From NCBI GenBank assembly GCA_039683575.1, contig JBDKRC010000034.1, positions 1 to 15,772 on the forward strand: DNA of 15,772 nucleotides, read 5' to 3'. A program made the translations under genes and the position numbers. This DNA comes from Armatimonadia bacterium. Lineage in GTDB: Bacteria; Armatimonadota; Zipacnadia; Zipacnadales; UBA11051. Shown here one piece after another: positions 890 through 15,772 of the stretch (position 1 is its first letter; each line of letters begins with the position of its first letter). The notes under the pieces are model-generated. The model did no database searches and was not told where the DNA came from. It was given only the letters and a program-made list of their open reading frames with translations.

Positions 890-904
890 TTCCACCAACA
901 CACC

Positions 905-939
905 AAAAAGGCGCGCCGGAACCTCCTCCGGTGCGCCTT
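905..939 (-). terminator. Rho-independent terminator for the 964-1701 gene (possibly bidirectional)
   Basis: Stem AAGGCGCGCCGGA / TCCGGTGCGCCTT with a 6-nt loop, followed by TTTTT on the - strand. It lies between convergent genes. Confidence 0.7.
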
Positions 940-963
940 CACTTCTCCTCAGCACCCAAAACT

Positions 964-1701: not shown

Positions 1702-1761
1702 GCTTTAGCCTCCTCCGTCGCCGTGTGACATTTCGCCTCTGCCGCCATCCGCGACCACCGA

Positions 1762-1845
1762 GGAACGGGGACTGACCCCAATTTCGCAACGCTCCCGATC
1801 TCCTCCCACAGACCCTCATGCGAAATTGGGGTCTGTCCCCATTCC
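1762..1845. repeat. 84-bp inverted-repeat element (MITE/REPIN-like)
   Basis: Arms GGAACGGGGACTGACCCCAATTTCGCA (1762-1788) and the reverse complement of 1819-1845 are 25/27 identical, with a 30-nt spacer. Each arm holds its own GGGG-N5-CCCC hairpin. Confidence 0.8.
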
Positions 1846-1884
1846 GGCCTCCCCTCACTTACCGCTATTCGCTATCCGCTGCCG

Positions 1885-4101: not shown

Positions 4102-4140
4102 CTTGCGCCCTTCGCCCTCATTGCTACCTTCTGGTCTTCG

Positions 4141-4236
4141 CCGTCGCCGTCACCGTCACCGTCACCGTCACCGTCACCGTCACCGTCACCGTCACCGTTG
4201 CCGCTGCCGCTGCCGTTGCCGTTGCCGTTGCCGTAG
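4141..4236. repeat. Hexanucleotide tandem repeat, 16 units of CCGYNR
   Basis: CCGTCG, (CCGTCA)x8, CCGTTG, (CCGCTG)x2, (CCGTTG)x3, CCGTAG. Confidence 0.95.
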
Positions 4237-4275
4237 GTGCGCGAAGCGACGTCCGCGTCGCAGGGCATCCTGCCC
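4233..4275 (+). repeat. GTAG-led REP-like palindromes
   Basis: GTAGGTGCGCG followed by hairpins GCGACG-TCCG-CGTCGC (4246-4261) and GGGCA-TCC-TGCCC (4263-4275). Confidence 0.55.
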
Positions 4276-4317
4276 GCCTCTGGCCGTTTCCGTTTCCGTC
4301 GCCGCAGCCCCGCCGTT

Positions 4318-4522
4318 TGACCCCAACGGGGTCACCGAATATAGCCAGGGGTGAAACCCCTGGAACGCGCCCCTCCAACCTCTCTCCTGACCCCAACGGG
4401 GTCACCCGCCGTTCACCGTCGTCAAGCCGTTCCTGTCGTCAGGCCCGAAGGGCCGCCAGCCTCTAGCCAGGGCCGCAAGGCCCTGGTGCGAAGCCCCCAA
4501 GCTTCTGGAGCCCCGAAGGGGC
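4318..4522 (+). repeat. Two diverged copies of a three-hairpin cassette
   Basis: Unit 1 (4318-4404): TGACCCC-AAC-GGGGTCA, TAG-CCAGGGGT-GAA-ACCCCTGG, TGACCCC-AAC-GGGGTCA. Unit 2 (4442-4522): GGCCC-GAA-GGGCC, TAG-CCAGGGCC-GCAA-GGCCCTGG, GCCCC-GAA-GGGGC. Confidence 0.8.
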
Positions 4523-4536
4523 GGCAGCACTTACAC

Positions 4537-7500
4537 TCAGTTCCCCAACCGCCCCTCCACATTAGTCACCACAATCCGCCTCACCAGGCCCCCGTCCTCG
4601 CGGTTGATCAGCCTCACAACATGCTCCCCCGCCGCCAGCCGCACACCCTCCGCATGCCGCACCCAATGCCACCGTCCCATCACCCCATCATTCCCAAACG
4701 TCCCCTCGGCCCCGTCATCCACCTGCAAAAAGAGCGAGTTCCCCTTGTCATCCGGCCACCAGCACTCCGCCCCGAAGTAGTATACCCCGTCCACCGGCAC
4801 GCTCACCTGCCACTCAACCCACCCCGCCCGCTCCCCCGGCTGCCGTGGGTTGCCGGTAAACGTCGCATCACGCACCACTCCCACTGCCGGCGGCGTCTGC
4901 TTGATGAGCACGAACGGTGCCTGCGCCTTCCCCTCGCCGGCCCCCTTCTCCACCTGCACCAGCTTCGCGACCACCTTCACTGGCAGCGCATACTCCCGGC
5001 GCGTCTCTCCCGCCTTGATCTCCAGACGCACCTCACCCGTCCGCTCCTCACCCTTCTTCGTCGACAGCCTGCAGACCAGCTCCGTCACCTTCGACGGCTC
5101 AATGGTAACCTTCGCCGGCACCTCCAGCGTCAGCCCCGCCGGTACCGCCAGCCCCTTCACCTCGATCGCCAGCGCCTTGTCGGTGGTGTTCACCACCTGC
5201 AGCTTGATCTCCGCCGGCTGATCCGGTGACAGCACCGCCTGCGGCGTGACCAGCCTCACCCTGATCGGCGTGAAGTACGGCAGCAGGTGCCCCAGCGACT
5301 GCGGCGCCCACGCGATGCTCCGCGTCCCCGCGCGCCCCTGGTTGTAATGCTCCTCGGTCAGCGGCCCGTACCACTGCTGGTCCCCATACCGCGCCGCATA
5401 GCTCAGCGCCGTGAAGCACTGCCACTCGCTGGCACTGTACCCATGCTTCTGCGTCGGCGCCTGCTTGTAGTAGAACAACGCGTTCGGCCCCATGGCCTCA
5501 GTCGTTAGCCAATCCGCGATGCCCAGCACTGCCTCCTTCGCCCGCACATCCCCCGTCGCCTCATACCATCGCCCCGCCCCACGCGCCACGATCCCGTGCA
5601 TGAACGCCGTCCCGCCCTCATACGAAGGCTGTTCGGAGATCGGCACCGAGATCACGCCCCGCACCGGGTCCTGCACCGACCGTACCCAGTCGATGACCTT
5701 CGTGCCCGCCTCGCGGTACTTCTCGTCATACGTCCCGTCATAGAGCGCCGACAGCGCCACCAGCGTCCATCCCGGCCCGCGCTCCTGCCCGCCGGCCCCG
5801 TACTGGTTGTTCGCCACCGTGTAGCAGTACCAGTCCCCCATGGCGTTGTACACTTCATAGCTGCGCGGGTCGCCCGTCATGAAGTAATACGCGATGACGC
5901 CCTCGACCCACGAGTGGCTGTTGTGCGCCCCCGCCACCGTATGATCCGCCACCCACCCCTTCTCCACGATGTGGCTCGAATTGTGATGATGCGGCGCCCC
6001 GACCAGATACTCCCGCCCCGGCGCCCAATGATAGCAGTCCACGTCCCGGTAATGCCGCGAACCCTCGTCCGCAATCTCCCACCACCGGTAGTCCCCGCTG
6101 CGCAAAAACTGCATCAACATCCCGTAGTGATGGTCATACTCCTGGTTCGACCAGAACGTATACGACGGCCCATAGCCCCACTCGAAGGTATCGTCCCCGA
6201 AGTTCTCCACCCCATACTCCCGCCGTGCCTCGCGCTTGGACAGATACCCCTTATACACACTCTCAACGCTCTGCTCATACTCCGGGAACAGCGCCTCGTC
6301 CGCCGCCGCAAACTCCCCCAGCGCCAGCGTCGAAGCCACATACCCCGGCTCCGCCGTAGCCACCGCCGGCGAGGCCACCGCGTCAAACTCACCCTCCCGC
6401 GGACCTTCGCGTAGTGCGGGCGTCTCGCCCGCGTTGTCGCCGAACACCAACGCAAAGTCGTTCCACAACGCCTGCCCCTGGTGCAGCACAAACGGCTTGT
6501 CCTTCTCCGCCGCCACCAGACTCAACTCGATCCCGCCCGGTGTCGCCACTACCCTCTTCGGGTACATCTGCCAGAACCACCGCGGCACCAGGTCCATCGT
6601 CATGCCCTTGCCAACCAGCCGCACCTGCCCCTGGTATCGCTTCTCAGTGCCCCTGACTTCCTTGCCATCGCGCACCCCTACGAACTCCGCCGTCTGGTCA
6701 TCCTTCTGCAAGAGCCCGCCCTTCTCCACCCGCTGGCCGTCCATCCAGATCGCCTTGGCGCCCATGCTGAGGGAGTAGTTGACTGTCAGCAGCTTCTCCT
6801 CCGCGCTCGCCTCCTTGTGCGTGATGACAGGCTGCACTCGCACTACTCCACTGTTCGCATAGAACTCTTCGGTCACGTCATACTCCAGGAAGTCCTGCCC
6901 GCCCTGCACTGCCTTCAGCCGCCCCACTCGCCGCACTATCGCCCGCATCGGCCCCGCCTCGACTACCTCACACCGGCTGACCGTCTCGCCAGCCGATGAA
7001 TAGACCGTGCCATCCTCCGCCGTCACCCACAGGTCCCACCCGCTGCCCGTCAGCCCCAGCTCCTCACCATCAACCTTGAGCCCGCTCAGCAGCCCGCCGC
7101 CCTTCTTGCTGATCGTCGCCTGCAGTGGCCCCGTGTTGATCGCGATGCTGTCCGCGGTCTCCTTCACAGTCACTCCCAGCCCCTCCACCGGCGCCCGCTT
7201 CACCTGCGTCCCATACTCACACCGCACCTCTCCGGGCGCGGTCGGGAAGCTGAACAGCACCCACTTGAACGACCCATCCGGCCACTTCGCCAACACCCGC
7301 GTCTGTAGCGGCACCTCTCTGCCCTGGTCATTGAGCAGGCGGATATTCTCCTCCGCCTTGACCGCCCCATAGGCAAACGGCATGCCGCCACTAACCACCT
7401 CGCCGCTCGCCTTGTAGTTCTCCGGCCCGGCCACCAGCACCGGGAACGTCGCCCGCACCGGAGCCTTCGTTGGCTTGTACAGCGGCGAACCCGTCGCCCC

Positions 7501-9183
7501 CGCCACCTCCTTGGCCTTCCCCGCGAGCAGCCCCACCGGCACCAGCGCCACGCTCTGCATGACGCACGCCTCGCCGCCCTCCGGCGTCGCCTGCACGCTC
7601 ACCACGCTCCCCGGCTTCAGGTCCGCCTGCCCAAAGTTGATCCAATACCACCCATAGTCATCCGCCGTAAGCTGTGCGGTCCCGAGCGCCTTCCCCTCCA
7701 CCGCCACCGCCAGCTTCCCCTGTCCCGTATGCTCATCCAGAGCCCGCACCAACACCGCATACCGACCCTTCTGCCCCGCAAACCTGGTCTTGACGGTGCC
7801 CTGCCCCTCGGCCACCGGCACCTGCACGATGCCCGGCAAAACATCCACTCCCGCCCAATACACATCGGTCGCAAACGGGAAATCCGCCGTCGTCGCCGCG
7901 CGATTCTCAACTCGCAACGTAATCGTCGCCTTGCCACTCGTGGGAGGGGCCACTGGCCCCGACGCAGCGCCCGTGGGAGGGGGCACTGACCCCGACCCGG
8001 GCATCTCCACCATCACAAACCGCCGCGTTGCCGGGTTGGGATTCATCCCCAGCACATCCTCCTCCCACACCACCTTCCCATTCACGAGCACCTGCTTGAA
8101 CCGCACGTCCTTCAGCTTGTTCTCCCGCGTGGACACCCGCTTGTCGCCCACCATCGTCGGGTCCATGCCTCCGCAGTAATCATCCGAATTGTAGAACCGC
8201 AAGTACGCTCCGCCCGCCGGAAGCGTCACCGTCCGCGTCGCCTCCACAAAGCTCCCCGCCGCCGCCGGCTCGTCCGCATGAGACATCGTCATCACGCCAC
8301 GCCGGTCCGTCTTGCAGCCAAACGGCCCCTTGCTTGTGATCTTCCATCCCTCGTCGCTCAGCGGCAGCGACCCCACCGCCCGCGGCGCCAGCAGTATCTC
8401 ACCAAGCTCCGCCGCGAAGTTCGCCGGCACTACCCGCGCCCGCGGCGCCGGCCAATTCGGCGCCACCGAACACGCATACGCCATCAAATTCGCCAAAAAC
8501 GCGCTGCTCGTCCCCGGCTGCCCCTTATCATCATTGATGAACCCATACTCCGGGATCATCTGGCAAAACACTACTCGGCCCTTGCCCACCGGTATCTCCA
8601 CCAGACCATAGTGCGGCCCCTTGCTCGCTGCCACGTTCTTGTCCCAGTTCTGCTCGTCGCCGGTACTAACCAGCGGCACCGCTCCCTGCGGCAGTTCATG
8701 GAAAGCCCGGTAGATGCTCCCGCCATGCACCTTCGCGAGGTCACCCTTCCCGAACTTCCGGGGCAGGTTGAACACCGCATGCTCCGGCTTGAGCACCTCG
8801 CCCAGCGCATAGGCCTTATCCATTTTGAGGCCGGACAGACCCGTATTCGGGTCTGCGAGCCACTGCGGCTCCTGGTTCATGCGCATGCAAAGCAGTACCC
8901 CACCAGTCCGCAGGAAGGCCTGCACCCGCTCCGGCGCCAGGTTCAGCGCATTCTGATCCACATCCATCCCCCAGACCACCACCTGGCTATCAAACAGCGA
9001 CACCTTCCGACTCGAATAGTCCCCCGGTGCTGCCAGCTTGTACTCCACCCCAAGCCCCGTCAACCCCTTCGCCGTAGTCCCACCGGCATCATCAAACAGA
9101 GTCACCCGCACCTCCGCCGCCTCCCCCAGCCCCATCACCATCACGACCAGCAAGCTGACCAGACACCGCAAAAAAGTCCGCAT
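4537..9183 (-). CDS. Large secreted multidomain protein (1548 aa) with a PcRGLX/YetA-like exo-rhamnogalacturonan lyase-type module
   Basis: Likely start is ATG 9183 (GAGGGTGG RBS, signal peptide MRTFLRCLVSLLVVMVMGLGEAA). Motifs GMPFAYGAV, VPLQTRVLAKWPDGSFKWVL, INTGPLQATI, VVEAGPMRA, YGVENFGD, WSNQEYD, HYRDVD and SHSWVEG..YYFMTGDPR match the PcRGLX/YetA (PL26-like) architecture as I recall it. CBM-like beta domains flank the module. Substrate is inferred. Confidence 0.8.
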   Translation of the reverse strand: MRTFLRCLVSLLVVMVMGLGEAAEVRVTLFDDAGGTTAKGLTGLGVEYKLAAPGDYSSRKVSLFDSQVVVWGMDVDQNALNLAPERVQAFLRTGGVLLCMRMNQEPQWLADPNTGLSGLKMDKAYALGEVLKPEHAVFNLPRKFGKGDLAKVHGGSIYRAFHELPQGAVPLVSTGDEQNWDKNVAASKGPHYGLVEIPVGKGRVVFCQMIPEYGFINDDKGQPGTSSAFLANLMAYACSVAPNWPAPRARVVPANFAAELGEILLAPRAVGSLPLSDEGWKITSKGPFGCKTDRRGVMTMSHADEPAAAGSFVEATRTVTLPAGGAYLRFYNSDDYCGGMDPTMVGDKRVSTRENKLKDVRFKQVLVNGKVVWEEDVLGMNPNPATRRFVMVEMPGSGSVPPPTGAASGPVAPPTSGKATITLRVENRAATTADFPFATDVYWAGVDVLPGIVQVPVAEGQGTVKTRFAGQKGRYAVLVRALDEHTGQGKLAVAVEGKALGTAQLTADDYGWYWINFGQADLKPGSVVSVQATPEGGEACVMQSVALVPVGLLAGKAKEVAGATGSPLYKPTKAPVRATFPVLVAGPENYKASGEVVSGGMPFAYGAVKAEENIRLLNDQGREVPLQTRVLAKWPDGSFKWVLFSFPTAPGEVRCEYGTQVKRAPVEGLGVTVKETADSIAINTGPLQATISKKGGGLLSGLKVDGEELGLTGSGWDLWVTAEDGTVYSSAGETVSRCEVVEAGPMRAIVRRVGRLKAVQGGQDFLEYDVTEEFYANSGVVRVQPVITHKEASAEEKLLTVNYSLSMGAKAIWMDGQRVEKGGLLQKDDQTAEFVGVRDGKEVRGTEKRYQGQVRLVGKGMTMDLVPRWFWQMYPKRVVATPGGIELSLVAAEKDKPFVLHQGQALWNDFALVFGDNAGETPALREGPREGEFDAVASPAVATAEPGYVASTLALGEFAAADEALFPEYEQSVESVYKGYLSKREARREYGVENFGDDTFEWGYGPSYTFWSNQEYDHHYGMLMQFLRSGDYRWWEIADEGSRHYRDVDCYHWAPGREYLVGAPHHHNSSHIVEKGWVADHTVAGAHNSHSWVEGVIAYYFMTGDPRSYEVYNAMGDWYCYTVANNQYGAGGQERGPGWTLVALSALYDGTYDEKYREAGTKVIDWVRSVQDPVRGVISVPISEQPSYEGGTAFMHGIVARGAGRWYEATGDVRAKEAVLGIADWLTTEAMGPNALFYYKQAPTQKHGYSASEWQCFTALSYAARYGDQQWYGPLTEEHYNQGRAGTRSIAWAPQSLGHLLPYFTPIRVRLVTPQAVLSPDQPAEIKLQVVNTTDKALAIEVKGLAVPAGLTLEVPAKVTIEPSKVTELVCRLSTKKGEERTGEVRLEIKAGETRREYALPVKVVAKLVQVEKGAGEGKAQAPFVLIKQTPPAVGVVRDATFTGNPRQPGERAGWVEWQVSVPVDGVYYFGAECWWPDDKGNSLFLQVDDGAEGTFGNDGVMGRWHWVRHAEGVRLAAGEHVVRLINREDGGLVRRIVVTNVEGRLGN
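6411..6432 (+). repeat. Intragenic GTAG REP-like palindrome
   Basis: GTAG-T-GCGGGCG-TCT-CGCCCGC. 6408-6432 is 24/25 identical to intergenic 815-839, and the hairpin is identical to 13301-13317 (- strand). Confidence 0.85.
7940..7996 (+). repeat. Intragenic tandem pair of GTGG REP-like palindromes
   Basis: GTGGGAGGGGCCACTGGCCCCGAC (7940-7963) and GTGGGAGGGGGCACTGACCCCGAC (7973-7996), 33-nt period. Same frame GTGGGA-GGGG...CCCC-GAC as intergenic 9214-9238. Confidence 0.8.
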
Positions 9184-9213
9184 AGTACCACCCTCAAGAA
9201 TCTCGAATGCCGT

Positions 9214-9238
9214 GTGGGAGGGGTCTCCAGACCCCGAC
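9214..9238 (+). repeat. Intergenic GTGG REP-like palindrome
   Basis: GTGGGA-GGGGTCT-CC-AGACCCC-GAC. Confidence 0.75.
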
Positions 9239-9281
9239 CCTCGTCCACCACCAGCGCCGCCCGTACGACCACCCCTCCGCT

Positions 9282-9327
9282 GTAGGGCCGGGGCTCGTAC
9301 CCGGCCGGCCGTTATCACCGACCAACC
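9282..9327 (+). repeat. 46-nt GTAG hairpin plus conserved-tail element
   Basis: GTAG-GGCCGGG-GCTCGTA-CCCGGCC-G-GCCGTTATCACCGACCAACC. A second copy is on the - strand at 13244-13289. Confidence 0.8.
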
Positions 9328-9435
9328 CTCCGCCGCGACCCTCGTGGCCGCCCCTCCAACCTTCCCCGCTCTGCCCCAAACTTCCTGCGCCTGCAGGCTC
9401 CTCATCCCTCCCGACGAACCCAACCTCACCGGAGG

Positions 9436-9870
9436 CCCCAATCTGGGGATAACGCGCGATGGGGGCGTTTGGGCGGGATATCTGCATTGTTATCAGAACA
9501 GTTAGGCGAAAAACGGGGGCTGGTGCCGAGGGGGCGAAGGCTCTCGGGAAGACGGTCAGATCTGAGGGATGATCGGCGCTATGGGGCTGTGAGTGGGTGC
9601 TGCGGGCATTGTGGACTATTCAACGAAAACCTTAAATAGTGCCTCAAAACGCCTGTCAGGGCCGTCGAACATCTGTGCACACATGAAAATGGCTCTCAGA
9701 GCCCCGTAGAGGGCACTGAGAGCCATTTTGCCATTTCCTGCGAGTCCCAGATGAACAGCGATTCCGGGGCCCAAATGTTGGCTATTGCAGCTTCACAAAG
9801 GTAGGTCAGCGACTAACCAACTCATCCCCGCCGCACCCACTTTGGTATCGATTTCGACCTCTGATTGAGC
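9436..9870. other. GC-skew switch region; candidate replication origin
   Basis: The + strand is C-rich to the left and G-rich to the right regardless of gene strand. The region is non-coding and less GC-rich, with DnaA-box-like TGGGGATAA (9444-9452, 8/9), TGTGGACTA (9610-9618, 7/9) and CTGTGCACA (9673-9681). Confidence 0.5.
9686..9729 (-). terminator. Long hairpin, probable (bidirectional) terminator downstream of 9872-13138
   Basis: AAAATGGCTCTCAG-A-GCCC-CGTAGA-GGGC-A-CTGAGAGCCATTTT: 14-bp perfect stem, one mismatch, 4 further bp; ends in T4 on both strands. Confidence 0.65.
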
Positions 9871-9871
9871 G

Positions 9872-12800
9872 TTACTGTACCACTGTCAGTGCTTGCTGCT
9901 TGCTCAGACCCGAGGCGAGTTCCTTCGCCTTGATCTGCCATGTTCCGGTCGGGTCGTTGGAGGCGATGTCGAGGTGCATAGTCGCCTTACCATTCCTGGC
10001 TCCATAGTACCCACTGAACTCGGCCTGCTGACCCTTCGAGTCGGTGACCTGGAGCTGGACGGGAACCACTGCGGACAGCGGCTGGCCCTTGGCATCCAGC
10101 ACCGCGACCACAACATCAACCCCGCCACCGCGCTTGACCCTGGCCGGAGCGGTGACCTTGACCGAGGCCACCGGGGCCGGGGTGATGAGGAAGACCTTGC
10201 CGTCACCGGGGCCGAAGCTCGCATCGAACTGCATGCCGCCGGCGACCGGCTTTGAGGGCACCGCGCAGTGCTTGACGAGGTCATAGATCGTCCCACCCTT
10301 GAGGGCGACCCAGAGGCGGGAGGACAGCGGCAGGCCCTTCTCCATGACCTTGCCGTGGTGGCCGACGTAGTCGCCGAACTCCCGCTTGTCATTGAGGGCG
10401 AAGAGGTAGTCGCTGCTGCCATACTGGCGGAAGCGGAGCACAATGTCGGCCTCCAGCGAGTCGCCGTAGCGGCTGTAGAAGGGATCAAGCTCCTTGCGCA
10501 GGGCCGCTGCCTTGGCCTGCAGGGCCGCCTTGTCCTGGTCGGCCTTGCCGGTGCGCTTGGCGGTTGAGACTACGATGTCGGGCAGGATAGCCGGGCAGAG
10601 GTACTCGTCGGCAACTACGATGCCGCCGCGCTTTTGGAAGGCCTTGATCCTGTCTACCACGCCCTGGGTGAGCACATCGCAGTAGGGCATGACGAGGACG
10701 CGGTAATCATCGAGGCCGTCGCGCATGATGGTTTCATCGAAGAGGATGCGAGGCTGCAGGTGGGCCCACTGCAGGATCAGGTGCATGTCGGCTTCCCACG
10801 AACTGCTCCAGCCATACGAGCCGCGGCCGGCGAAGATCTGGGAGGCGGCGCTTTCGAGCATCGCCACATCGGTCTTGCGGTCCGGCACCTGCAGCAGCGT
10901 CGGGCCGAGCGGGCGGACGACGTTGTGGGTCAGGTCAGTGAGCACGTTCTGGGTCTCGGGGTTGGTGAAGACATAGCCCTTGGTGGCGCCGATGTCCACG
11001 AGGGAGCCCCAGCCGTGGTACATGATGCCGCGGATGGGGCGGGAGATCTTCGACCAGAAGGCCTCGCGCATGTGATCCGGGGCGATGGTGATGAACGCGG
11101 CCTCCTCGGCGTTGGGCAGCTTCTTCTCCCAATCCTTGCGGTCAGCTTCGTTGTCCGGCGGCTTGGGAGCGGTCTGGGAGCGGTACCAGATGATCTGCGT
11201 CATCTTCATGACTTGCTGGCCTGGCTTGCCGCCAGCCATCGCAAAGAGTTCGTCGGTGGCCTGACCGATCTTGATTGGATCGGGATAGGAGTAGGTCCAC
11301 TGGGAGATGACATCAACATCGCCGCCGCTGCCCCAGATGTCCGGCACGCGGACGGCGGGGTCGAAGAAGGTGAAGAGGTCCTTGCGGCCAGTGGACTTGA
11401 TGCCATTGGAGAGCTGGCTATGCAGGGGGTTCCAGCCATCTCCGTCTTTCCAGAACCATTTGTAGAAGGTCAGGAGCTTGTAGTCATCGGGGATGACGCG
11501 ATTGGCCGGGAAGCCCTTGAGAGCGCGGTAGTTGACGCCGTTCTTGCCGGCGGCTTCGGCGGGAATGTCGAAGCCGGAGAAGGCTTTGAAGGCGGCTTTG
11601 TCATGCTCGTGGAAGCACAGGTCGGAGCCGTCGCGGACCTCAGAGTGGATCAGGGCAGCGGTGAGGGCGGGGTACTGGCCGAAGGTCTGGGCGATGGACG
11701 CGCCTACGTTATAGCAGAACTGGCGAACCTCGGGGAAGTTGCCGCAGACGTTGTCATTGGCGCGCACGACGCCGAGGCGGTCTACGCGATTGTACTTGGC
11801 CTTGCGCTCGGGATCACGGGTGACCCAGGTTCCGGGATGGGCGTAGACGGCACCGTTGAGACCGTTCTTGAGATAGTCGTCGAGGGTCTTGCCACTCTGC
11901 TCGATACCGTCCGGGGTCGCGCAGGGGCCGGGCGTGCCGCGCTTCCAGATGAGTTCGTCGTTGGCGAGGCCGATCAGGTTGTGAGTGAAGCCGATGCTCT
12001 TGAGGCGCTCAATATCGCCGGTGCCCCACATGACCACAGGCATCTGATTGGGCAGCGGGCGCGGCGTGATCGTGAGCGGGATTTCCTTCTCGATGCGGAC
12101 GGGCTGGCCGTTGCTGACCGCCGTGGCGAGGGCCTTGAGGTCGTAGGTGCCGGGGCGGACGGTGGTGTCCAGAGCGAGAGGAATGGAGGTCTCACCGTTG
12201 GGGGCGAGGTCGGGAATGGTGACGTTTTTGGTGACTCCGCCAAAGGTGACCTGAACCTTGCCATTGGTCATGGGCGTAGGGGAGTCGTTGGCGATCTGCA
12301 GAGCCAGGTTGACGTTCTTCTCCATGCGCACATAGGCGCTGCGGGCGCGGCCGAGGCCGACGATGAGCCCGCCGGAGAAGTAGGGGACGATGCCCTTGGA
12401 GACGCGGACCTGGGCGAGGTAGCCGGGGAAGCCGGAGTGCGTGCTGCCGAAGCGGTCGCCGATGACGAGACCATTGGTGCCGTTGGTGACAGGGCCGCGG
12501 TCCTCAAGGAGTTGCTTGGAGACCAGCTTGCCATCGAGGAAGAAGCGGACGCGGCCGGCGCCATCGTAGGTCATGGCGGCGTGCATCCACTTGCCGGGCT
12601 CGACATCAAAGACAGGACCGGTGAGGAAGGCGGAGTCTTTGCCGAAGCCAAGAGAGGACATGAAGCGGCGCTTGTTCTCGCCGGCTCTGGCGAGGTAGAA
12701 GCTGTAGTCCCAGTTGGCCTGGGGGAGGTCCTTGGCGTATGGGTAGTTCTTCTTGTCGAAGAAGTAGATGTTCTCCCACTTGTTGGCGTCGGGCTTGAGC

Positions 12801-13138
12801 ATGAACCAGGCTTCGAGGGTGAAGGCGCCAGCGGGGGTGAGATCATCTTTGTCCGCCGCAATGGCGCCCTGCTCCTTGTCGCTTTCGGTGTTGGCGCCGA
12901 AGGACTCGAGCGCGCCGCCGAAGGGGCCCTCTTTCACGACCACGGACTGGCTGCGGAGCTTGAGGTCGTGGCCGTGGCCGGAGACGTCCTTGAGTTCCTG
13001 TCCGGGCTGGAACTGCCAGAGGGCGATGACGTTGTCGCCGGTGGCCTCGGCGCCGGTGTAGAGCTGTTGCCAGGGCTCGGCGGCGAAGGCGGAGGTTACG
13101 GCGAGGAGTACGGCCAGGATTGGGATCAGGTTTCGCAT
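9872..13138 (-). CDS. Secreted LamG-jellyroll / GH42-like glycoside hydrolase-type protein (1088 aa)
   Basis: Likely start is ATG 13138 (CAGGAG RBS, signal peptide MRNLIPILAVLLAVTSAFA). LamG motifs DVSGHGHDL, AFTLEAW, WMHAAMTYDG..RFFLDG; beta-galactosidase trimerisation-like YRVLVMPYCDVLTQGVVDRIKAFQKRGGIVVAD; C-terminal Ig-like ASNDPTGTWQIKAKELASG. Confidence 0.8.
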   Translation of the reverse strand: MRNLIPILAVLLAVTSAFAAEPWQQLYTGAEATGDNVIALWQFQPGQELKDVSGHGHDLKLRSQSVVVKEGPFGGALESFGANTESDKEQGAIAADKDDLTPAGAFTLEAWFMLKPDANKWENIYFFDKKNYPYAKDLPQANWDYSFYLARAGENKRRFMSSLGFGKDSAFLTGPVFDVEPGKWMHAAMTYDGAGRVRFFLDGKLVSKQLLEDRGPVTNGTNGLVIGDRFGSTHSGFPGYLAQVRVSKGIVPYFSGGLIVGLGRARSAYVRMEKNVNLALQIANDSPTPMTNGKVQVTFGGVTKNVTIPDLAPNGETSIPLALDTTVRPGTYDLKALATAVSNGQPVRIEKEIPLTITPRPLPNQMPVVMWGTGDIERLKSIGFTHNLIGLANDELIWKRGTPGPCATPDGIEQSGKTLDDYLKNGLNGAVYAHPGTWVTRDPERKAKYNRVDRLGVVRANDNVCGNFPEVRQFCYNVGASIAQTFGQYPALTAALIHSEVRDGSDLCFHEHDKAAFKAFSGFDIPAEAAGKNGVNYRALKGFPANRVIPDDYKLLTFYKWFWKDGDGWNPLHSQLSNGIKSTGRKDLFTFFDPAVRVPDIWGSGGDVDVISQWTYSYPDPIKIGQATDELFAMAGGKPGQQVMKMTQIIWYRSQTAPKPPDNEADRKDWEKKLPNAEEAAFITIAPDHMREAFWSKISRPIRGIMYHGWGSLVDIGATKGYVFTNPETQNVLTDLTHNVVRPLGPTLLQVPDRKTDVAMLESAASQIFAGRGSYGWSSSWEADMHLILQWAHLQPRILFDETIMRDGLDDYRVLVMPYCDVLTQGVVDRIKAFQKRGGIVVADEYLCPAILPDIVVSTAKRTGKADQDKAALQAKAAALRKELDPFYSRYGDSLEADIVLRFRQYGSSDYLFALNDKREFGDYVGHHGKVMEKGLPLSSRLWVALKGGTIYDLVKHCAVPSKPVAGGMQFDASFGPGDGKVFLITPAPVASVKVTAPARVKRGGGVDVVVAVLDAKGQPLSAVVPVQLQVTDSKGQQAEFSGYYGARNGKATMHLDIASNDPTGTWQIKAKELASGLSKQQALTVVQ

Positions 13139-13166
13139 TTTGTTTGGGCTCCTGTGAGGCTGGGGC

Positions 13167-13334
13167 GGTTGGTTAGTCGGTGATAGTCGCGATCGGTGAT
13201 CGCTCGTACAGATGGTTCTAGTAAGGAAGGTATGTGGTGCGGCGGTTGGTCGGTGATAACGGCTGGGCCGGCTGAAGCCCGGCCCCTCCGAACGGCGGGA
13301 GCGGGCGAGACGCCCGCGCACCTACGGCAACGGC
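13167..13334 (-). repeat. Cluster of REP-like elements on the - strand
   Basis: Read on the - strand: GCCGTTGCC-GTAG-GTGC-GCGGGCGTCTCGCCCGC (13334-13301); GGAG-GGGCCGG-GCTTCAG-CCGGCCC-A-GCCGTTATCACCGACCAACC (13289-13244); variant tail TATCACCGACTAACCAACC (13185-13167). Confidence 0.8.
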
Positions 13335-13346
13335 TACGGCGGGCGG

Positions 13347-14336
13347 CTATTGGAGGACCTGGATGGTTACTGGCTTCCAGATGCCGCCGGCGAAGGCGCT
13401 GTCTGAGACGCGGATTGTTATCTGGTTCTTTTCGCCCCACTTGAGCTCTTTGGTTACGTCCAGCGCAAACGGGATGTTCCAGCCCTCGGTGCCGAGGTCG
13501 TGCTGGCCTATGTACTGGCCGTTGAGCCAGACCCAGGCGATTTCGTCTACGCCGCCGAAGGCCAGTTCCGTGCCGAGTTGCTGGGGCTTGGCCGGGAGGT
13601 CGAAGGTGGTGCGATACCACGCTATGCCGTCGTAGGGGCCAATCTGCTCTTCCCAGGTGGCAGCGATCTTGATGGGCTTCCAGGCGGAGTCGTTGAACGC
13701 GGGCTCGAACCACTTTTGCAGGTGGCCGGTCTGCTTGGGATCGGTCTGGAGACGCCAGCCCTCGGTGGGGAGGGGGATGGTCTGGACGATTTTGATCTCG
13801 TGGTCCCAGTCCTTGCGGTCACGCAGGGAGATGTTCTCGCGGAAGAAGGGCCAGACGGCCTGGGCGGCTACCTCTCGGACCTGCTGCGATTCATCCTGGC
13901 GAGCGCCCTCGAGGAGGGTGTTGAGCTCCTGGGTGCGGGGCTTGAGGTTCACGAGCAGGTTGATGGCGGTGAGGCGGACGAGGGGGTCGGTGTCCTTCAT
14001 GGCTTTGGTGAGGTGCGGGAGGCTCTCGGCGGTGGGCGGGTCGCAGAGGGTCGCGAGGGCCGAGCGGCGGACGAGGACGTCGTCGTTGTCGAGAGCGGGA
14101 ATGAGAGCCGCGCGGGCCGGAGCGCCGAGGTCCACCAGGAGGCGAACAGCGGTGCGGCGGACGACGAGGTTCTCGTCCTGCAGGGCCGCCGAGAGTGTGG
14201 GTATGGCGGCAGCGCCCTGGGTGGAGCACTTGAGCAGGGCGGCGCGGCGCTCGGCCGGTGATTGGGCCGGAGCGGCGGCAGAGAGGGTGGCCGCGAGTAT
14301 GGCTACGAGGACCAAAAGGTACGAGGTGGTTTTCAT
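13347..14336 (-). CDS. Secreted HEAT-repeat protein fused to a GH2 N-terminal-like sugar-binding domain (329 aa)
   Basis: Likely start is ATG 14336 (AGGAAG RBS, signal peptide). Four HEAT/PBS-lyase repeats (LQDENLVVRRTAV, LDNDDVLVRRSAL, MKDTDPLVRLTAI, QDESQQVREVAA). C-terminal YDGIAWYRTTF, LAFGGVDEIAWVWLNGQYIGQH, GEKNQITIRV and GGIWKPV. Confidence 0.88.
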   Translation of the reverse strand: MKTTSYLLVLVAILAATLSAAAPAQSPAERRAALLKCSTQGAAAIPTLSAALQDENLVVRRTAVRLLVDLGAPARAALIPALDNDDVLVRRSALATLCDPPTAESLPHLTKAMKDTDPLVRLTAINLLVNLKPRTQELNTLLEGARQDESQQVREVAAQAVWPFFRENISLRDRKDWDHEIKIVQTIPLPTEGWRLQTDPKQTGHLQKWFEPAFNDSAWKPIKIAATWEEQIGPYDGIAWYRTTFDLPAKPQQLGTELAFGGVDEIAWVWLNGQYIGQHDLGTEGWNIPFALDVTKELKWGEKNQITIRVSDSAFAGGIWKPVTIQVLQ

Positions 14337-14444
14337 GGGTTGCACTTCCTGAACGGCCTGATGGGAGGCGAGATGGTGGGAGAGTTCGAGGGGAGAGGGG
14401 GAGGGTCCTTCTTTTTCTGCGGCGGGGGAGGCAAAGGCATGCAA

Positions 14445-14476
14445 AGGATGATGAGGATGAGAAGGATGTTAAGGAG
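14445..14476 (+). repeat. AGGAT motif with 9-bp periodicity
   Basis: AGGAT at 14445, 14454 and 14463; AGGAG at 14472. Confidence 0.55.
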
Positions 14477-14545
14477 GAAGGCCCGAAGAACTTGGGCGGG
14501 CAGGTGGCAGGCGAAGGCTCAGGCAGGTAACGAGCAGCCGAGGTA

Positions 14546-15652
14546 ATGATGGAAGAACGAATAGCGAGTTTGAAGGCCAGCGTCCTGGGGTTTGTGGAGA
14601 GCTGTGCGTTGGGCGAAGTGGGGCGGTACCGGTATTCGCTGGCTTGCAGTGAGGCGACGCTGTATTCGTCCAGCTATGCAGCGATGGCGCGGGACCTGCT
14701 CGGCGACCTGGAGGGGCTGGAGGTTGGGGAGCGGGAGGAGTGGGTGGCTTATCTCAATGGTCATCAGGACGAGGAGGGGCTGTATCGCGATCCGGTGATC
14801 TTTGGGGAAGGGTGGTATGAGGGCGATCCGCTGTGGTGCGGGCGGTCGCATCTGACCTGCCATGTGGTGACCGCGCTGGCTTGTCTGGGGGCGGTGGCGC
14901 CACGGGAGTTTGGATGGCTGGAGCCGTGGCGGGATGTGGACCGGATGGTGGCGTGGCTTGGGGAGCGGGATTTCGGGGAGCGAGTGGGCTGGTCAGGTAA
15001 TGAGATCATGAACGTGGGGACGCTGCTGCAGTATGCGCGGGAGTTCCATGGGGATGAGCGGGCGGGGCGGGCAGTGGCCTGCTTGCTGGATTGGCTGGAG
15101 ACGCATCAGGTGAGCGCGGAGACGGGGGTGTGGGGGTCGCTGGACGTGAACGACCCGATACAGCGGTCGCATATGGTGCAGGCGGCTTACCACTGGTGGC
15201 CGCTGTTTGCGTATGACGGGCGGGCGTTTCCGTATGCGGAGCGGGCGGCGGAGACGGTTCTGGCGACGCAGAATCCAGTGGGCGGGTTTGGGTGGGGAGT
15301 GCACAACCCGGCGGAGCCATTTGCGAGCAGCGCGTGTGAGGATATCGACTCGCTCGATCCGCTGGCGCGGCTCCTGGAGCAGGCGCCGGGGCAACGGGAG
15401 GAGATTGTGGCGGCGATACAGCGGGGGGCGGAGTGGGTGAGGAGCAACCAGGTGGCGGATGGGGGCTTCGTGTTCGTGAAGGGGAGGGGGTTTGAGTATG
15501 GGCACCGGGAGCTGAGAGGAGAGGAGGGGAAGGGGGCGATGTTCCCGACGTGGTTCCGGTTGTTGGCGCTGGCGGTTTGTGATGCGGCGCTGGGGGAGGG
15601 AGGGTGGAGGTTCTGTGGGTGTCCGGGGATGCAGTTTTGGGGGGAAGGGTGA
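14546..15652 (+). CDS. Prenyltransferase/squalene-oxidase-repeat (alpha/alpha toroid) family protein
   Basis: GAGGT upstream of ATGATG. Repeated QW-like motifs YLNGHQDEEGLY, WLETHQVSAETGVWG, LATQNPVGGFG and WVRSNQVADGGF. No signal peptide; function unknown. Confidence 0.75.
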   Translation: MMEERIASLKASVLGFVESCALGEVGRYRYSLACSEATLYSSSYAAMARDLLGDLEGLEVGEREEWVAYLNGHQDEEGLYRDPVIFGEGWYEGDPLWCGRSHLTCHVVTALACLGAVAPREFGWLEPWRDVDRMVAWLGERDFGERVGWSGNEIMNVGTLLQYAREFHGDERAGRAVACLLDWLETHQVSAETGVWGSLDVNDPIQRSHMVQAAYHWWPLFAYDGRAFPYAERAAETVLATQNPVGGFGWGVHNPAEPFASSACEDIDSLDPLARLLEQAPGQREEIVAAIQRGAEWVRSNQVADGGFVFVKGRGFEYGHRELRGEEGKGAMFPTWFRLLALAVCDAALGEGGWRFCGCPGMQFWGEG

Positions 15653-15672
15653 GGGGTGAGGGGGAGAGCTTT

Positions 15673-15710
15673 ACAGGATGGGCAGGATAAAGGCGAGGAT
15701 GAGCAGGATG
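15673..15710 (+). repeat. AGGAT motif repeats (9/12/9 spacing)
   Basis: AGGAT at 15675, 15684, 15696 and 15705. Confidence 0.55.
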
Positions 15711-15772
15711 AGAGGGGGAGGGGGAGGGGTGTAGGGGAGTGGTCACAATGGGGACGGAGCCATTGCGCGATG

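What the first reader, a model, noticed from the sequence alone, without database searches (positions are those of the whole stretch)
9436..9870. Sharp strand-asymmetry switch: candidate oriC with no dnaA nearby
Seen (hand counts on selected 60-nt lines): 2041-2100 C29/G13 and 9301-9360 C32/G13, versus 9541-9600 G26/C11, 12121-12180 G30/C13 and 15061-15120 G29/C13. The switch is independent of gene strand. Left of it, the + gene prefers C-ending codons and the - genes G-ending; right of it, the - genes prefer C-ending codons and the + gene G-ending. The flip starts near the palindrome CCCCA-ATC-TGGGG (9436-9448), which overlaps an 8/9 DnaA box; 9780-10100 is mixed. Known: a C-to-G switch on the + strand is the usual polarity of a replication origin. 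No dnaA, dnaN, gidA or parAB gene is in the window and the boxes are few and degenerate, so this may be an atypical origin. Alternatives are an inversion breakpoint or a mis-assembly.
Basis: partly seen in the sequence, partly recalled or inferred. Interest (0 to 1): 0.8.

Follow-up and report, generated by a model that had tools for sequence, protein, structure and literature searches.

The report
Recurrent strand-bias cusp, not the origin
The sharp flip in G-versus-C content is real, but it is only the strongest of at least twenty such one-directional flips in this uncultured bacterium's genome, so it marks an unusual recurring DNA process rather than the single start point of chromosome copying.

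Summary
GC skew is -0.31 over 751-9440 and +0.23 over 9872-15772, and the cumulative minimum is at 9443. The flip is independent of gene strand.

The oriC reading does not hold.
- The window is a whole 15.8-kb contig of an Armatimonadia MAG.
- dnaA and dnaN, together with the only intergenic DnaA-box cluster, lie on another contig that has no upward jump.
- The genome holds 20 sharp upward jumps in third-codon-position skew against 2 downward ones. With all sites the count is 31 against 8. The window's jump is the largest. Skew relaxes over about 10-30 kb on either side of a jump, giving a sawtooth.

Relatives sampled are almost skew-free. MutY is not found here but is present in skew-free kin. 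The bias is a G/C exchange.

A REP repeat family, of the kind mobilised on single-stranded DNA, tracks skew polarity by orientation and is denser in skewed DNA. A genome-specific palindromic element of about 170 nt (window 9571-9738) is enriched at the jumps.

Best reading: a fixed site from which a recurrent, two-sided process that exposes single-stranded DNA spreads outward. Whether that process is break-and-resection-like or origin-like is unresolved.

The parts
9400..9500 (.). The cusp. Composition flips from C-rich to G-rich on the + strand. The cumulative G-C minimum is at 9443, inside the short palindrome at 9436-9448.
   Evidence: Counts per 100 bp: 9301-9400 G20/C52, 9401-9500 G28/C31, 9501-9600 G47/C17.
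751..9440 (.). Left flank. The + strand is C-rich, with skew -0.31. GC3 skew referred to the + strand is -0.47 to -0.59 in three - strand genes and -0.13 in the + strand FKBP gene.
9872..15772 (.). Right flank. The + strand is G-rich, with skew +0.23 rising to about +0.5. GC3 skew is +0.40 and +0.41 in two - strand genes and +0.62 in the + strand gene.
9184..9871 (.). Intergenic region between g4 (4540-9183, -) and g5 (9875-13138, -). Its G+C is about 55%. No Rfam family matches at E <= 1 and there is no tRNA.
9571..9738 (-). Copy of a genome-specific repeated element of about 170 nt, found at 26 loci. It is enriched at upward skew jumps.
   Evidence: nhmmer E = 6e-37, alignment A1. Association test: 10 of 24 scorable loci have delta GC3 skew > 0.3, against 5.6% of 1157 other intergenic gaps, Mann-Whitney p = 1.7e-6.
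9615..9640 (.). Core imperfect palindrome of the element: 11-nt arms with a 4-nt spacer.
   Evidence: The degenerate core pattern gives 32 matches (about 21 sites) in this genome and 0 in 30 relatives; the reversed-pattern control gives 0 here.
9686..9729 (.). Long hairpin with a 14-bp perfect stem flanked by an A-run and a T-run, like a bidirectional terminator. It is part of the element.
   Evidence: Inverted repeat I2, 95% complementary. Terminator-like site. DNA fold z = -3.07, with 0 of 200 shuffles folding as well.
9266..9335 (+). REP-like repeat, with GTAG 5' of a GC-rich hairpin, in + orientation on the C-rich side. The related strain lacks one 71-nt copy (9234-9304).
   Evidence: BLAST, nhmmer 289 hits genome-wide, strain joint 9233>9305.
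13244..13285 (-). REP-like repeat in - orientation on the G-rich side. This agrees with the genome-wide rule that the GTAG strand lies on the C-rich strand.

Best explanation
The flip at about 9443 is not the chromosomal origin. It is the strongest of at least 20-31 fixed 'cusps' in this genome. At each cusp, G/C skew at synonymous sites jumps sharply from C-rich to G-rich, and it relaxes over roughly 10-30 kb on both sides.

I propose that each cusp is a fixed site from which a recurrent DNA transaction spreads in both directions and leaves one strand single-stranded. Because the lineage lacks MutY, guanine damage on the exposed strand goes uncorrected (G to T). The genome's strong A/T-to-G/C pressure then turns this into a net G-to-C change. 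The result is an extreme, gene-strand-independent G/C asymmetry in the sequence.

The REP repeats are mobilised on single-stranded DNA. Their polarity indicates that the exposed strand is the one that ends 3' at the cusp. That is what a two-ended break followed by 5' resection would leave, and it is the opposite of what origin firing would leave.

The 170-nt palindromic element beside the window's cusp is either the fragile or cis-acting site itself or, more likely given its variable offset, another repeat that accumulates where single-stranded DNA is frequent.

Shown here: the cusps, their one-way polarity, their restriction to this lineage among the genomes sampled, the G/C-only chemistry, the REP coupling, the failure to find MutY, and the enrichment of the element. 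Inferred: single-strand exposure as the common cause, MutY loss as the amplifier, and break-plus-resection as the transaction.
For: Positional, not gene-strand, skew.
- GC3 skew of adjacent genes on opposite strands correlates at r = +0.64 when referred to the + strand (705 pairs).
- The regression is p3 = 0.91*local skew - 0.03*strand, R2 = 0.63.

One-way cusps.
- There are 20 upward against 2 downward distinct jumps of more than 0.5 in GC3 skew.
- With all-site skew the counts are 31 against 8, 18 against 2 and 9 against 0.
- This asymmetry does not depend on contig orientation.

Shape.
- The mean profile at 10 element-linked cusps is about +-0.4 within 10 kb, falling towards 0 by 25-30 kb.
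- Long contigs show plateaus near 0 between cusps.

Lineage specificity.
- All 49 orthologous loci have per-kb |skew| <= 0.25.
- G002 has sd 0.025 over 55 windows of 4 kb and G004 has sd 0.028, against sd 0.12 and a maximum of 0.39 here.

Chemistry.
- At 4-fold sites C falls from 0.40 to 0.19 and G rises from 0.40 to 0.66.
- The C-rich strand has T > A.
- C/G differences are about 20% of all differences from the related strain.

MutY.
- The best hit here scores 53 bits against a cut-off of 286.5. G002, G003, G004 and G017 score 305-320 bits.
- tblastn with MutY from two relatives finds only a paralogue at 22-25% identity.
- MutY-less kin have larger GC3-skew sd (G018 0.12, G001 0.12-0.20) than MutY-bearing kin (0.06-0.09).

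REP coupling.
- The fraction of REPs in + orientation falls from 0.89 to 0.28 across the skew bins, Fisher p = 9e-14.
- A composition-balanced core word gives the same trend, 0.80 to 0.17.
- Orientation does not depend on the direction of neighbouring genes.
- REP density is about 2.7 times higher where |skew| > 0.3.
- The genome has 7 Y1-transposase homologues.
- Passages in PMC3333891 and PMC5027513 state that these enzymes act on single-stranded DNA, preferentially on the lagging-strand template.

The oriC candidate lies elsewhere. The element is enriched at cusps.
Against: - The polarity inference rests on transferring the IS200/IS605 paradigm to this REP family, which was not tested here.
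- The classical rule that the leading strand is G-rich reads the same cusps as origin-like.
- A passage on E. coli mismatch-repair mutants reports G:C transversions only 1.15 times more often with the purine on the leading-strand template (10.1101/346874). This would fit origin polarity.
- The ribosomal-protein operon has a slightly G-rich coding strand.
- The orientations of the Y1-transposase genes are uninformative. Only 4 lie in clearly skewed DNA; in 3 the coding strand is G-rich and in 1 it is C-rich.
- MutY is 'not found' in a 96.4%-complete MAG. No clean deletion could be shown, because gene order is scrambled between these genomes.
- Other MutY-less kin (G001, G018) have only moderate skew and symmetric jumps. 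MutY loss alone therefore does not make cusps.
- 11 of the 20 strongest cusps lack the element, 5 of 24 element loci show no upward shift, and the distance from flip to element varies by about +-1.2 kb.
- Break hot spots that stay fixed over evolutionary time would be costly to the cell.
- My REP profile was seeded from a copy that lies in skewed DNA.
- No read-level data were available, only assembled contigs.
Confidence: 0.4

Rival explanations
1. Origin-like sites. The cusps are places where bidirectional DNA synthesis starts repeatedly. This could be many chromosomal initiation sites with stochastic use and dispersed termination, like the 'N-domains' of mammalian genomes, or it could be local, often abortive over-initiation. 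In either case the G-rich strand would be the leading strand, as in classical bacteria. The window's cusp would then be the most efficient of these sites.
For: - The cusps have the same polarity as classical origins, and the sawtooth has sharp rises and gradual declines.
- This matches the shape described for human N-domains (search listing and abstracts of PMC2764438 and PMC3320577; the details are recalled).
- The cusps are two-sided and do not depend on the orientation of the element.
- Higher REP density near cusps could reflect extra rounds of synthesis.
- The E. coli transversion bias and the orientation of the ribosomal-protein operon fit a G-rich leading strand (10.1101/346874 passage).
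- The complete Fimbriimonas genome (same phylum) has a 'jagged' skew map (PMC4072686 passage).
Against: - To the right of an origin the exposed lagging-strand template is the + strand, which is G-rich here. The REP strand that the ssDNA transposase acts on lies on the C-rich strand instead.
- Genes are not co-oriented with the inferred fork direction: 858 of 1807 (47.5%) have their coding strand on the G-rich strand.
- No DnaA-box clusters occur at cusps: 14 of the 20 jump regions have no box with at most 1 mismatch, and none has more than 2.
- Several cusps lie inside long reading frames.
- Plateaus near zero between cusps fit local decay better than a linear gradient between origins.
- No natural bacterium with many origins on one chromosome turned up in my searches.
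Confidence: 0.3
2. Fork-convergence sites. The cusps are fixed barriers where replication forks from both sides meet. Initiation would be dispersed within the domains, and the leading strand would be C-rich in this MutY-less lineage.
For: - REP polarity and the argument from G loss on the exposed strand both give converging forks at cusps.
- The palindromic core of the element could bind a dimeric protein and act as a two-way barrier.
- At the dnaA-adjacent DnaA-box cluster the skew steps mildly downward, from -0.05 to -0.25, as an origin would under inverted polarity.
Against: - It requires as many initiation zones as barriers, for which there is no evidence.
- The step at dnaA is about one standard deviation of ordinary intergenic variation (sd 0.19).
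- The element is missing at 11 of 20 cusps.
- The higher REP density near cusps is not explained by fork direction alone.
Confidence: 0.08
3. The single chromosomal origin, in atypical form and displaced from dnaA.
For: The window has the largest jump in the genome, delta GC3 skew 0.88. It lies in a lower-GC intergenic region with one 8-of-9 DnaA box at the exact flip.
Against: - There are 19 other sharp upward jumps.
- dnaA-dnaN and the only intergenic cluster of at least 3 DnaA boxes are on C252.
- The count of DnaA boxes in the window is within chance: 12 of 200 shuffles reach 3.
- The intergenic sequence is not conserved in 30 relatives.
Confidence: 0.04
4. A patchwork with no local process. 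The skew pattern would come from inversions or translocations in a genome with strong two-replichore skew, from foreign DNA, or from chimeric assembly. The window's flip would then be a breakpoint.
For: - Gene order is scrambled between these genomes. The g6-g5 pair is conserved in relatives, but g4 is never next to g5.
- The assembly is a fragmented MAG of 352 contigs.
- MutY-less relatives show block-like, symmetric sign changes.
Against: - Breakpoints would give equal numbers of sharp upward and downward jumps. The observed counts are 20:2 and 31:8.
- The graded declines and the graded REP orientation are not step-like.
- Flips occur inside intact reading frames.
- Native, syntenic genes (g5-g6) carry the skew.
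- Independent contigs from other samples tile the junction.
Confidence: 0.08

Closest known systems
Bacterial oriC as seen by GC skew (minimum of cumulative skew, DnaA boxes, dnaA-dnaN neighbourhood)
   Same: A sharp switch from C-rich to G-rich on the + strand that is independent of gene strand and lies in a lower-GC intergenic region.
   Different: It is not unique (20-31 such switches). There is no DnaA-box cluster and there are no origin-linked genes nearby. The dnaA-adjacent DnaA-box cluster lies elsewhere and has no upward jump. The skew decays within tens of kb. Genes are not co-oriented with it.
Skew 'N-domains' of mammalian genomes: upward jumps at replication origins with gradual decline between them (PMC2764438 and PMC3320577 seen as listing and abstracts; details recalled)
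   Same: A sawtooth with sharp upward jumps and gradual declines, and a strand asymmetry that is independent of gene direction.
   Different: The organism is a bacterium. The scale is tens of kb rather than megabases. The amplitude is far larger (GC3 skew up to +-0.6). Plateaus near zero lie between cusps. REP polarity argues against origin polarity.
Strong G/C-only strand disparity in Microgenomates (CPR) genomes (PMC7143001, passages read)
   Same: A large G-versus-C disparity with little A/T disparity, unrelated to gene strand and restricted to a lineage.
   Different: There it keeps one sign along the whole chromosome, read as possible unidirectional replication. Here the sign flips many times with a polar sawtooth.
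'Jagged' GC skew of Fimbriimonas ginsengisoli, a complete genome of the same phylum (PMC4072686, passages read)
   Same: An Armatimonadota genome with irregular skew and scattered replication genes.
   Different: That paper reports no polarity of the jumps, no associated repeats and no link to a repair gene. Its supplementary skew figure could not be seen.
Orientation bias of IS200/IS605 elements and REP/RAYT systems relative to the lagging-strand template (PMC5027513 and PMC3333891, passages read)
   Same: The REP has the GTAG-plus-hairpin architecture, the genome carries Y1 transposase genes, and REP orientation is strongly strand-biased.
   Different: Here the bias follows many local skew domains in a graded way rather than two replichores. 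No RAYT-REP pairing was tested.
MutY-deficient (GO-system) mutator lineages
   Same: MutY is not found. G+C is lower than in MutY-bearing congeners (63.5% against 68-69%). The asymmetry has the sign expected from G-to-T changes on one strand.
   Different: A classical mutY phenotype is a genome-wide G:C-to-T:A excess, not local cusps. Other MutY-less kin lack the polar pattern.

Membership tests
DnaA-dependent bacterial oriC | Cluster of DnaA boxes in a non-coding region | tested here: not met
   There is one box with at most 1 mismatch in 9184-9871. The window holds 3 against 0.92 expected, and 12 of 200 shuffles reach 3. The genome has only two clusters of at least 3 boxes in 600 bp, and neither is in the window.
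DnaA-dependent bacterial oriC | Neighbourhood of dnaA, dnaN, gidA or parAB | tested here: not met
   Pfam on 7 window proteins finds FKBP, glycan-active and HEAT domains and nothing linked to replication. dnaA and dnaN are on C252.
DnaA-dependent bacterial oriC | Unique sign change of skew (global cumulative minimum) | tested here: not met
   There are 20 distinct upward jumps above 0.5 in GC3 skew and 31 above 0.2 in all-site skew. A global curve cannot be drawn for 352 unordered contigs.
DnaA-dependent bacterial oriC | AT-rich unwinding element | tested here: inconclusive
   The lowest 500-bp G+C is 0.56, against about 0.65 in the flanks. No dedicated search for a DUE or DnaA-trio was run.
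DnaA-dependent bacterial oriC | Conservation of the origin region in relatives | tested here: not met
   BLAST finds the 186-nt stretch 9560-9745 in 0 of 30 relatives. The core pattern is found in 0 of 30. The element profile gives 0 hits in about 1 Mb of sampled relative DNA.
Replication skew N-domains (multi-origin sawtooth) | Sharp upward jumps with gradual declines, independent of transcription | tested here: met
Replication skew N-domains (multi-origin sawtooth) | Upward jumps coincide with mapped initiation sites or early replication | not testable with these tools
   Only assembled contigs of public runs were served, so no depth profile could be made.
REP / RAYT (Y1 HUH transposase) repeat system | Short GC-rich imperfect hairpin with conserved GTAG 5' of the stem, in high copy number and mostly extragenic | tested here: met
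   Consensus from 62 seed copies. There are 289 nhmmer hits, and 221 of 289 lie outside called ORFs. The definition is taken from passages of PMC3333891.
REP / RAYT (Y1 HUH transposase) repeat system | Cognate Y1 transposase gene, typically flanked by REPs (a REPtron) | tested here: inconclusive
   7 PF01797 hits score above the cut-off. Whether REPs flank them was not examined.
dif / Xer recombination site (considered for the palindromic core) | Single copy per chromosome at the terminus | tested here: not met
   There are about 21 sites in the genome.
Structured non-coding RNA (considered for the 170-nt element) | Match to a known family, or a conserved fold with covariation | tested here: not met
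   No Rfam match at E <= 1 in 9184-9871. RNAalifold predicts 0 consensus pairs on alignment A1, with one strand tested. Single copies do fold into hairpins.

The most novel reading that the evidence does not exclude
This bacterium copies or processes its chromosome from dozens of fixed sites. In that case the cusps are either true replication initiation sites used stochastically, giving a eukaryote-like multi-origin programme with fork-polarity gradients, or programmed break-and-resection sites. Loss of MutY has turned the genome into a natural recorder of which strand is single-stranded where. This would be the first sequence-level map of such a programme in a bacterium.
Probability: 0.3. Interest if true: 0.95.

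Novelty: new variant of a known kind. Interest (0 to 1): 0.8.

Why it matters
GC skew is the standard way to place origins and to check genome assemblies. It assumes one upward and one downward switch per bacterial chromosome and a G-rich leading strand. This genome breaks both assumptions:
- it has many one-directional switches of extreme amplitude;
- the switches are absent from its closest sampled relatives;
- an independent, non-compositional marker (the orientation and density of REP repeats) follows them;
- the genome lacks a guanine-oxidation repair gene.

If the cusps are initiation sites, this would be a natural multi-origin bacterium. If they are break-and-resection or stalling sites, it would be a sequence-level record of chromosomal fragile sites.

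Either way the case makes one question testable: how far does single-strand exposure, combined with a missing repair pathway, shape base composition and even protein composition? Codon positions 1 and 2 also shift with local skew, with coefficients 0.16 and 0.14.

There is also a practical warning. Calling origins from skew, and checking MAGs for mis-assembly by skew, would both mislead in genomes like this one.

Tried and rejected
- Contig ends as cusps. The first 4 kb and last 4 kb of 178 contigs do not differ in GC3 skew (Wilcoxon p = 0.16), and the within-contig slope is not significant. Rejected.
- A fixed distance from flip to element. The offsets scatter by about +-1.2 kb, and the all-site minimum is blurred by codon effects. 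No fixed start point.
- A shared gene next to the element. Among 111 neighbouring ORFs, the only family that recurs at more than 3 loci (5 loci) is the very abundant prepilin-type N-terminal class. No initiator, integrase or transposase module was found.
- The element as a known RNA or mobile DNA. There is no Rfam match, no consensus fold, and no match in the phage or plasmid collections.
- A second shared element at the 12 jump regions without a full-length element copy nearby. Only short REP-like repeats and one partial element copy near the C8 jump were found.
- Synteny across the switch. g4 is not adjacent to g5 in any of the 15 relative loci examined, and gene order is scrambled in general. 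This is uninformative about a breakpoint.
- A clean mutY deletion could not be shown, for the same reason.
- Orientation of the Y1-transposase genes as a polarity marker. Only 4 of 7 lie in clearly skewed DNA, split 3 to 1. Uninformative.
- 16S rRNA as an orientation marker. None was found in the assembly.
- Other repair and fidelity genes. MutS, UDG, RNase HI and Fpg are present here and in nearly all the kin searched, so they do not explain the difference.
- Literature on the replication-strand bias of G-to-T changes in mutY bacteria. Two searches gave no direct statement.
- Public runs. All 24 listed runs are served as contigs only, and the best holds 0.34 of the sampled words. No depth, molecule-end or expression evidence can be drawn from them.
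- My first gene-calling attempt collapsed, because codon usage differs between skew domains. It was replaced by a model blind to G versus C at the third position.
- Supplementary files of papers were not consulted. The Fimbriimonas skew figure (its Figure S2) may bear on how general the pattern is in the phylum.
Full report
**1. The observation**

The window is an entire contig (C34, 15,772 bp) of a 6.23-Mb assembly in 352 contigs, 63.5% G+C. The assembly is 96.4% complete and 2.0% contaminated. The titles of the nearest relatives place it in Armatimonadota, class Armatimonadia.

Over whole regions, 751-9440 has G 1975 / C 3761 (skew -0.31) and 9872-15772 has G 2333 / C 1457 (+0.23). The chi-square is 677. 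The cumulative G-C minimum is at 9443, inside the small palindrome at 9436-9448, and 9780-10100 is mixed.

Seven real-looking genes fill the window:
- g1, an FKBP isomerase (+);
- g2, g3 and g4 (-);
- a 688-bp intergenic region, 9184-9871;
- g5 and g6 (-);
- g7 (+).

Genes on the - strand flank the switch on both sides with opposite third-position preferences: G957/C342 in g4 against C653/G281 in g5. The flip is therefore not an effect of gene strand.

**2. Genome-wide, skew depends on position**

I called 3,777 ORF-genes with a model blind to G versus C at the third position. GC3 skew referred to the + strand correlates between adjacent genes: r = +0.64 for 705 opposite-strand pairs and +0.76 for 1,941 same-strand pairs.

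A gene's GC3 skew is 0.91 times the skew of its 10-kb neighbourhood minus 0.03 times its strand, with R2 = 0.63. Codon positions 1 and 2 follow more weakly.

Gene orientation ignores the polarity. Of 1,807 genes in clearly skewed DNA, 858 (47.5%) have the G-rich strand as their coding strand.

**3. The switch is one of many, and they are one-directional**

Comparing adjacent 3-kb windows of GC3 skew gives 20 distinct sites that jump upward by more than 0.5, and only 2 that jump downward. The window's jump (0.88) is the largest.

All-site skew needs no gene calls. It gives 31 against 8 (more than 0.2), 18 against 2 (more than 0.25) and 9 against 0 (more than 0.3). A 320-kb control from a relative has none above 0.15. 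Reverse-complementing a contig leaves this asymmetry unchanged, so it cannot come from arbitrary contig orientation.

Long contigs show a sawtooth. On C347, in tenths per 3 kb, the series is +4 +3 +2 +2 +1 0 -2 -1 -2 -2 -1 -2, then +4 +4 +3. Plateaus near zero are common between cusps. Around 10 element-linked cusps the mean profile is about +-0.4 within 10 kb and approaches zero by 25-30 kb, though few contigs reach that far.

Several cusps lie inside intact long reading frames. One example is a 1,228-codon ORF on C163 that flips near 7,450-7,580.

**4. It is not the chromosomal origin**

dnaA and dnaN are adjacent on contig C252. Only two clusters of at least 3 DnaA boxes (at most 1 mismatch, within 600 bp) exist in the assembly. 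The only intergenic one lies directly upstream of dnaA, at C252:10494-10695. GC3 skew there goes from -0.05 to -0.25, so there is no upward jump.

The window's intergenic region holds a single 8-of-9 box, and the window's total of 3 is within chance. No window protein has a replication-related domain.

**5. Mis-assembly and breakpoint**

Public runs were served only as assembled contigs. Contigs of a 95-97% identical strain from other samples tile the junction: 8833-9233 plus 9305-9635 (X3), 8979-9568 (X2) and 9533-9927 (X4). That strain lacks one 71-nt REP copy. A chimeric join is therefore unlikely.

Synteny is uninformative. The g6-g5 pair is conserved in relatives, but g4 is never next to g5, and gene order is scrambled in this group in general.

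A patchwork of inversions would give equal numbers of sharp upward and downward steps. That is not what is seen.

**6. Restriction to this lineage**

The orthologous loci in same-genus and same-family genomes, and all 49 related loci from the genome collection, have per-kb |skew| of at most 0.25 and no flip beside the orthologue.

Larger samples of 4-kb windows give:

| Genome | Windows | sd of skew | Max abs. skew |
|---|---|---|---|
| G002 | 55 | 0.025 | 0.062 |
| G004 | 19 | 0.028 | 0.074 |
| G003 | 11 | 0.037 | 0.069 |
| this genome | - | 0.12 | 0.39 |

**7. Chemistry and a missing repair gene**

At four-fold degenerate sites the asymmetry is essentially an exchange of C and G. C goes from 0.40 to 0.19 and G from 0.40 to 0.66. 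The C-rich strand has T > A, and total G+C rises slightly in strongly skewed genes. C/G differences make up about a fifth of the differences from the related strain.

MutS, UDG, RNase HI and Fpg are present here and in nearly all the kin searched. MutY is not found here:
- The best hit scores 53 bits against a cut-off of 286.5 and is an EndoIII-like paralogue.
- tblastn with MutY from two relatives (G003, G004) finds only that paralogue, at 22-25% identity. The G002 query had picked a frame that is probably not MutY and gave no hit.
- G002, G003, G004 and G017 carry a clear MutY scoring 305-320 bits.

The MutY-bearing genomes are the skew-free ones. MutY-less G001 and G018 have intermediate skew variability, with GC3 sd of 0.12-0.20 against 0.06-0.09. 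Their jumps are symmetric, however, and my gene calls for G001 were poor. The sample is small and the genomes are not independent.

I infer that MutY loss amplifies a strand asymmetry: G to T on the more exposed strand, then T to C under the genome's strong pressure towards G+C. It does not by itself create cusps.

**8. An independent polar marker**

A REP-like repeat of about 72 nt has 289 profile hits genome-wide, with window copies at 9266-9335 and 13244-13285. It has the REP hallmark of GTAG immediately 5' of a GC-rich hairpin (definition from passages of PMC3333891).

Its orientation follows local GC3 skew in a graded way. The fraction in + orientation is 0.89, 0.75, 0.56, 0.39, 0.35 and 0.28 from the most C-rich to the most G-rich bin (Fisher p = 9e-14).

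This is not a compositional artefact. A core word with 3 G and 3 C, allowing one mismatch, gives 0.80 falling to 0.17. Orientation is also independent of the direction of neighbouring genes, with coefficients -0.02 and +0.02 against -0.79 for skew.

REPs are about 2.7 times denser in 10-kb windows with |skew| above 0.3. One caveat applies: the profile was seeded from a copy that lies in skewed DNA.

The genome has seven Y1 (IS200/IS605/RAYT-type) transposase homologues. The passages I read state that these enzymes act on single-stranded DNA and that IS200/IS605 elements insert preferentially into the lagging-strand template (PMC5027513, PMC3333891).

The GTAG-bearing strand lies on the C-rich strand. 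This suggests that the C-rich strand is the one more often single-stranded. On both sides of a cusp, that is the strand whose 3' end points at the cusp.

**9. The 170-nt element**

The intergenic region beside the cusp contains a copy (9571-9738) of a repeat found at 26 loci, sometimes in tandem. Its parts are:
- a long hairpin (window 9686-9729);
- a second GC hairpin with an A-run;
- a core imperfect palindrome with 11-nt arms and a 4-nt spacer (window 9615-9640);
- a conserved tail.

The skew change across element loci (right 5 kb minus left 5 kb) has a median of +0.25. Ten of 24 scorable loci exceed 0.3, against 5.6% of 1,157 other intergenic gaps (Mann-Whitney p = 1.7e-6).

By inspection, about 9 of the 20 strongest cusps have a copy within roughly 1.5 kb. 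The link is not one-to-one:
- 11 cusps lack the element;
- 5 element loci show no upward shift;
- the distance from flip to element varies.

The element was not found in 30 relatives by BLAST or by core pattern, nor by profile in about 1 Mb of sampled relative DNA, nor in the phage and plasmid collections. It matches no Rfam family and shows no consensus RNA fold, and it has no recurrent neighbouring gene of interest.

**10. Interpretation**

The following facts call for a DNA-level process anchored at fixed sites, acting in both directions and fading with distance:
- the skew is positional;
- the cusps are one-directional and decay on both sides;
- the pattern is confined to this lineage;
- the chemistry points to guanine loss;
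- the REPs are coupled to it in both orientation and density.

Two polarity classes remain.

*Classical reading.* If the G-rich strand is the leading strand, the cusps are origin-like. This reading is supported by the near-universal rule, by a weak transversion bias in E. coli (10.1101/346874 passage) and by the slightly G-rich coding strand of the ribosomal-protein operon.

*REP reading.* The REP logic, the argument that guanine is lost on exposed DNA, and the mild downward step at the dnaA-adjacent box cluster point the other way. The exposed strand would then be the one ending 3' at the cusp. A two-ended break with 5' resection would leave that, and so would converging forks.

Extra REP density near cusps and the plateaus between cusps favour a local, repeated transaction over a genome-wide gradient of fork polarity.

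I put break-and-resection-type exposure first (0.40) and origin-like firing second (0.30). Fork convergence (0.08), patchwork or artefact (0.08) and a single atypical oriC (0.04) follow. The rest is unassigned.

**11. Comparison with what is known**

My searches found several related reports:
- irregular 'jagged' skew in one complete genome of the same phylum (PMC4072686);
- a strong G/C-only strand disparity of constant sign in some CPR genomes (PMC7143001);
- sawtooth N-domains in mammals (listing and abstracts only);
- replication-linked orientation of ssDNA transposons.

I found no report of a bacterial genome with many one-directional skew cusps, and none of REP orientation tracking such domains. 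Earlier notes of this scan on this genome concern other loci. Word searches of the scan's notes found nothing alike.

I therefore file the finding as a new variant of replication- or repair-associated strand asymmetry. It is not a member of the oriC class.

Noticed in passing
window 4441-4486 (-): Match to the Acido-Lenti-1 small RNA family (RF01687): 39.6 bits against a gathering score of 37, E = 4e-6, full length. It lies in the g3-g4 intergenic region.
   Followed up: no
G000 whole genome; relatives G001-G005, G016-G018: MutY is not found in this genome or in G001, G005, G016 and G018. It is present in G002, G003, G004 and G017. The MutY-bearing congeners have higher G+C (68-69%) than the MutY-less ones (63.5% here, 54% in G001).
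   Followed up: partly
window 9234-9304, 9419 and 9446: The related strain in runs X2 and X3 lacks one 71-nt REP copy. It also carries a 13-nt insertion at 9419 and a 1-nt insertion at 9446. These indels cluster within about 200 bp of the cusp.
   Followed up: no
G000:C89:6114-6687: Second cluster of DnaA boxes (4 boxes with at most 1 mismatch in 600 bp). It lies inside a called ORF at the end of a 6.7-kb contig, so its right flank is missing.
   Followed up: no
G000:C331 about 37.3-37.7 kb and C239 about 18.4 kb: These are the only two sharp downward GC3-skew jumps. The one on C331 coincides with a Y1-transposase homologue at 37316-37654.
   Followed up: no
G000:C115:2630-3020, C31:4455-4926, C345:42837-43224, C44:47951-48319, C164:14879-15238, C123:1279-1558: The 170-nt element occurs in tandem, 2-3 copies spaced about 190-225 bp apart, at six loci.
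   Followed up: no
G000:C285 and C190: The ribosomal-protein operon and rpoB lie in DNA with almost no skew (local GC3 skew -0.03 to -0.11). Core housekeeping regions appear to be spared.
   Followed up: partly
G000 whole genome: No 16S rRNA gene is found in the assembly (RF00177, 0 matches), as is common for MAGs.
   Followed up: no
G001:C8 about 12 kb and about 40 kb; G018:C79 1-160 kb: MutY-less relatives show moderate block-like or weakly sawtooth skew: G001 goes from -0.11 to +0.09 and back, and G018 goes from +0.17 down to -0.08 and up again.
   Followed up: partly
element-flanking genes, e.g. G000:C209:8076-8688 and C345:43534-44134: Genes for proteins with a prepilin-type N-terminal methylation motif recur near 5 element loci. 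This is probably chance, because the family is very abundant in such genomes.
   Followed up: partly
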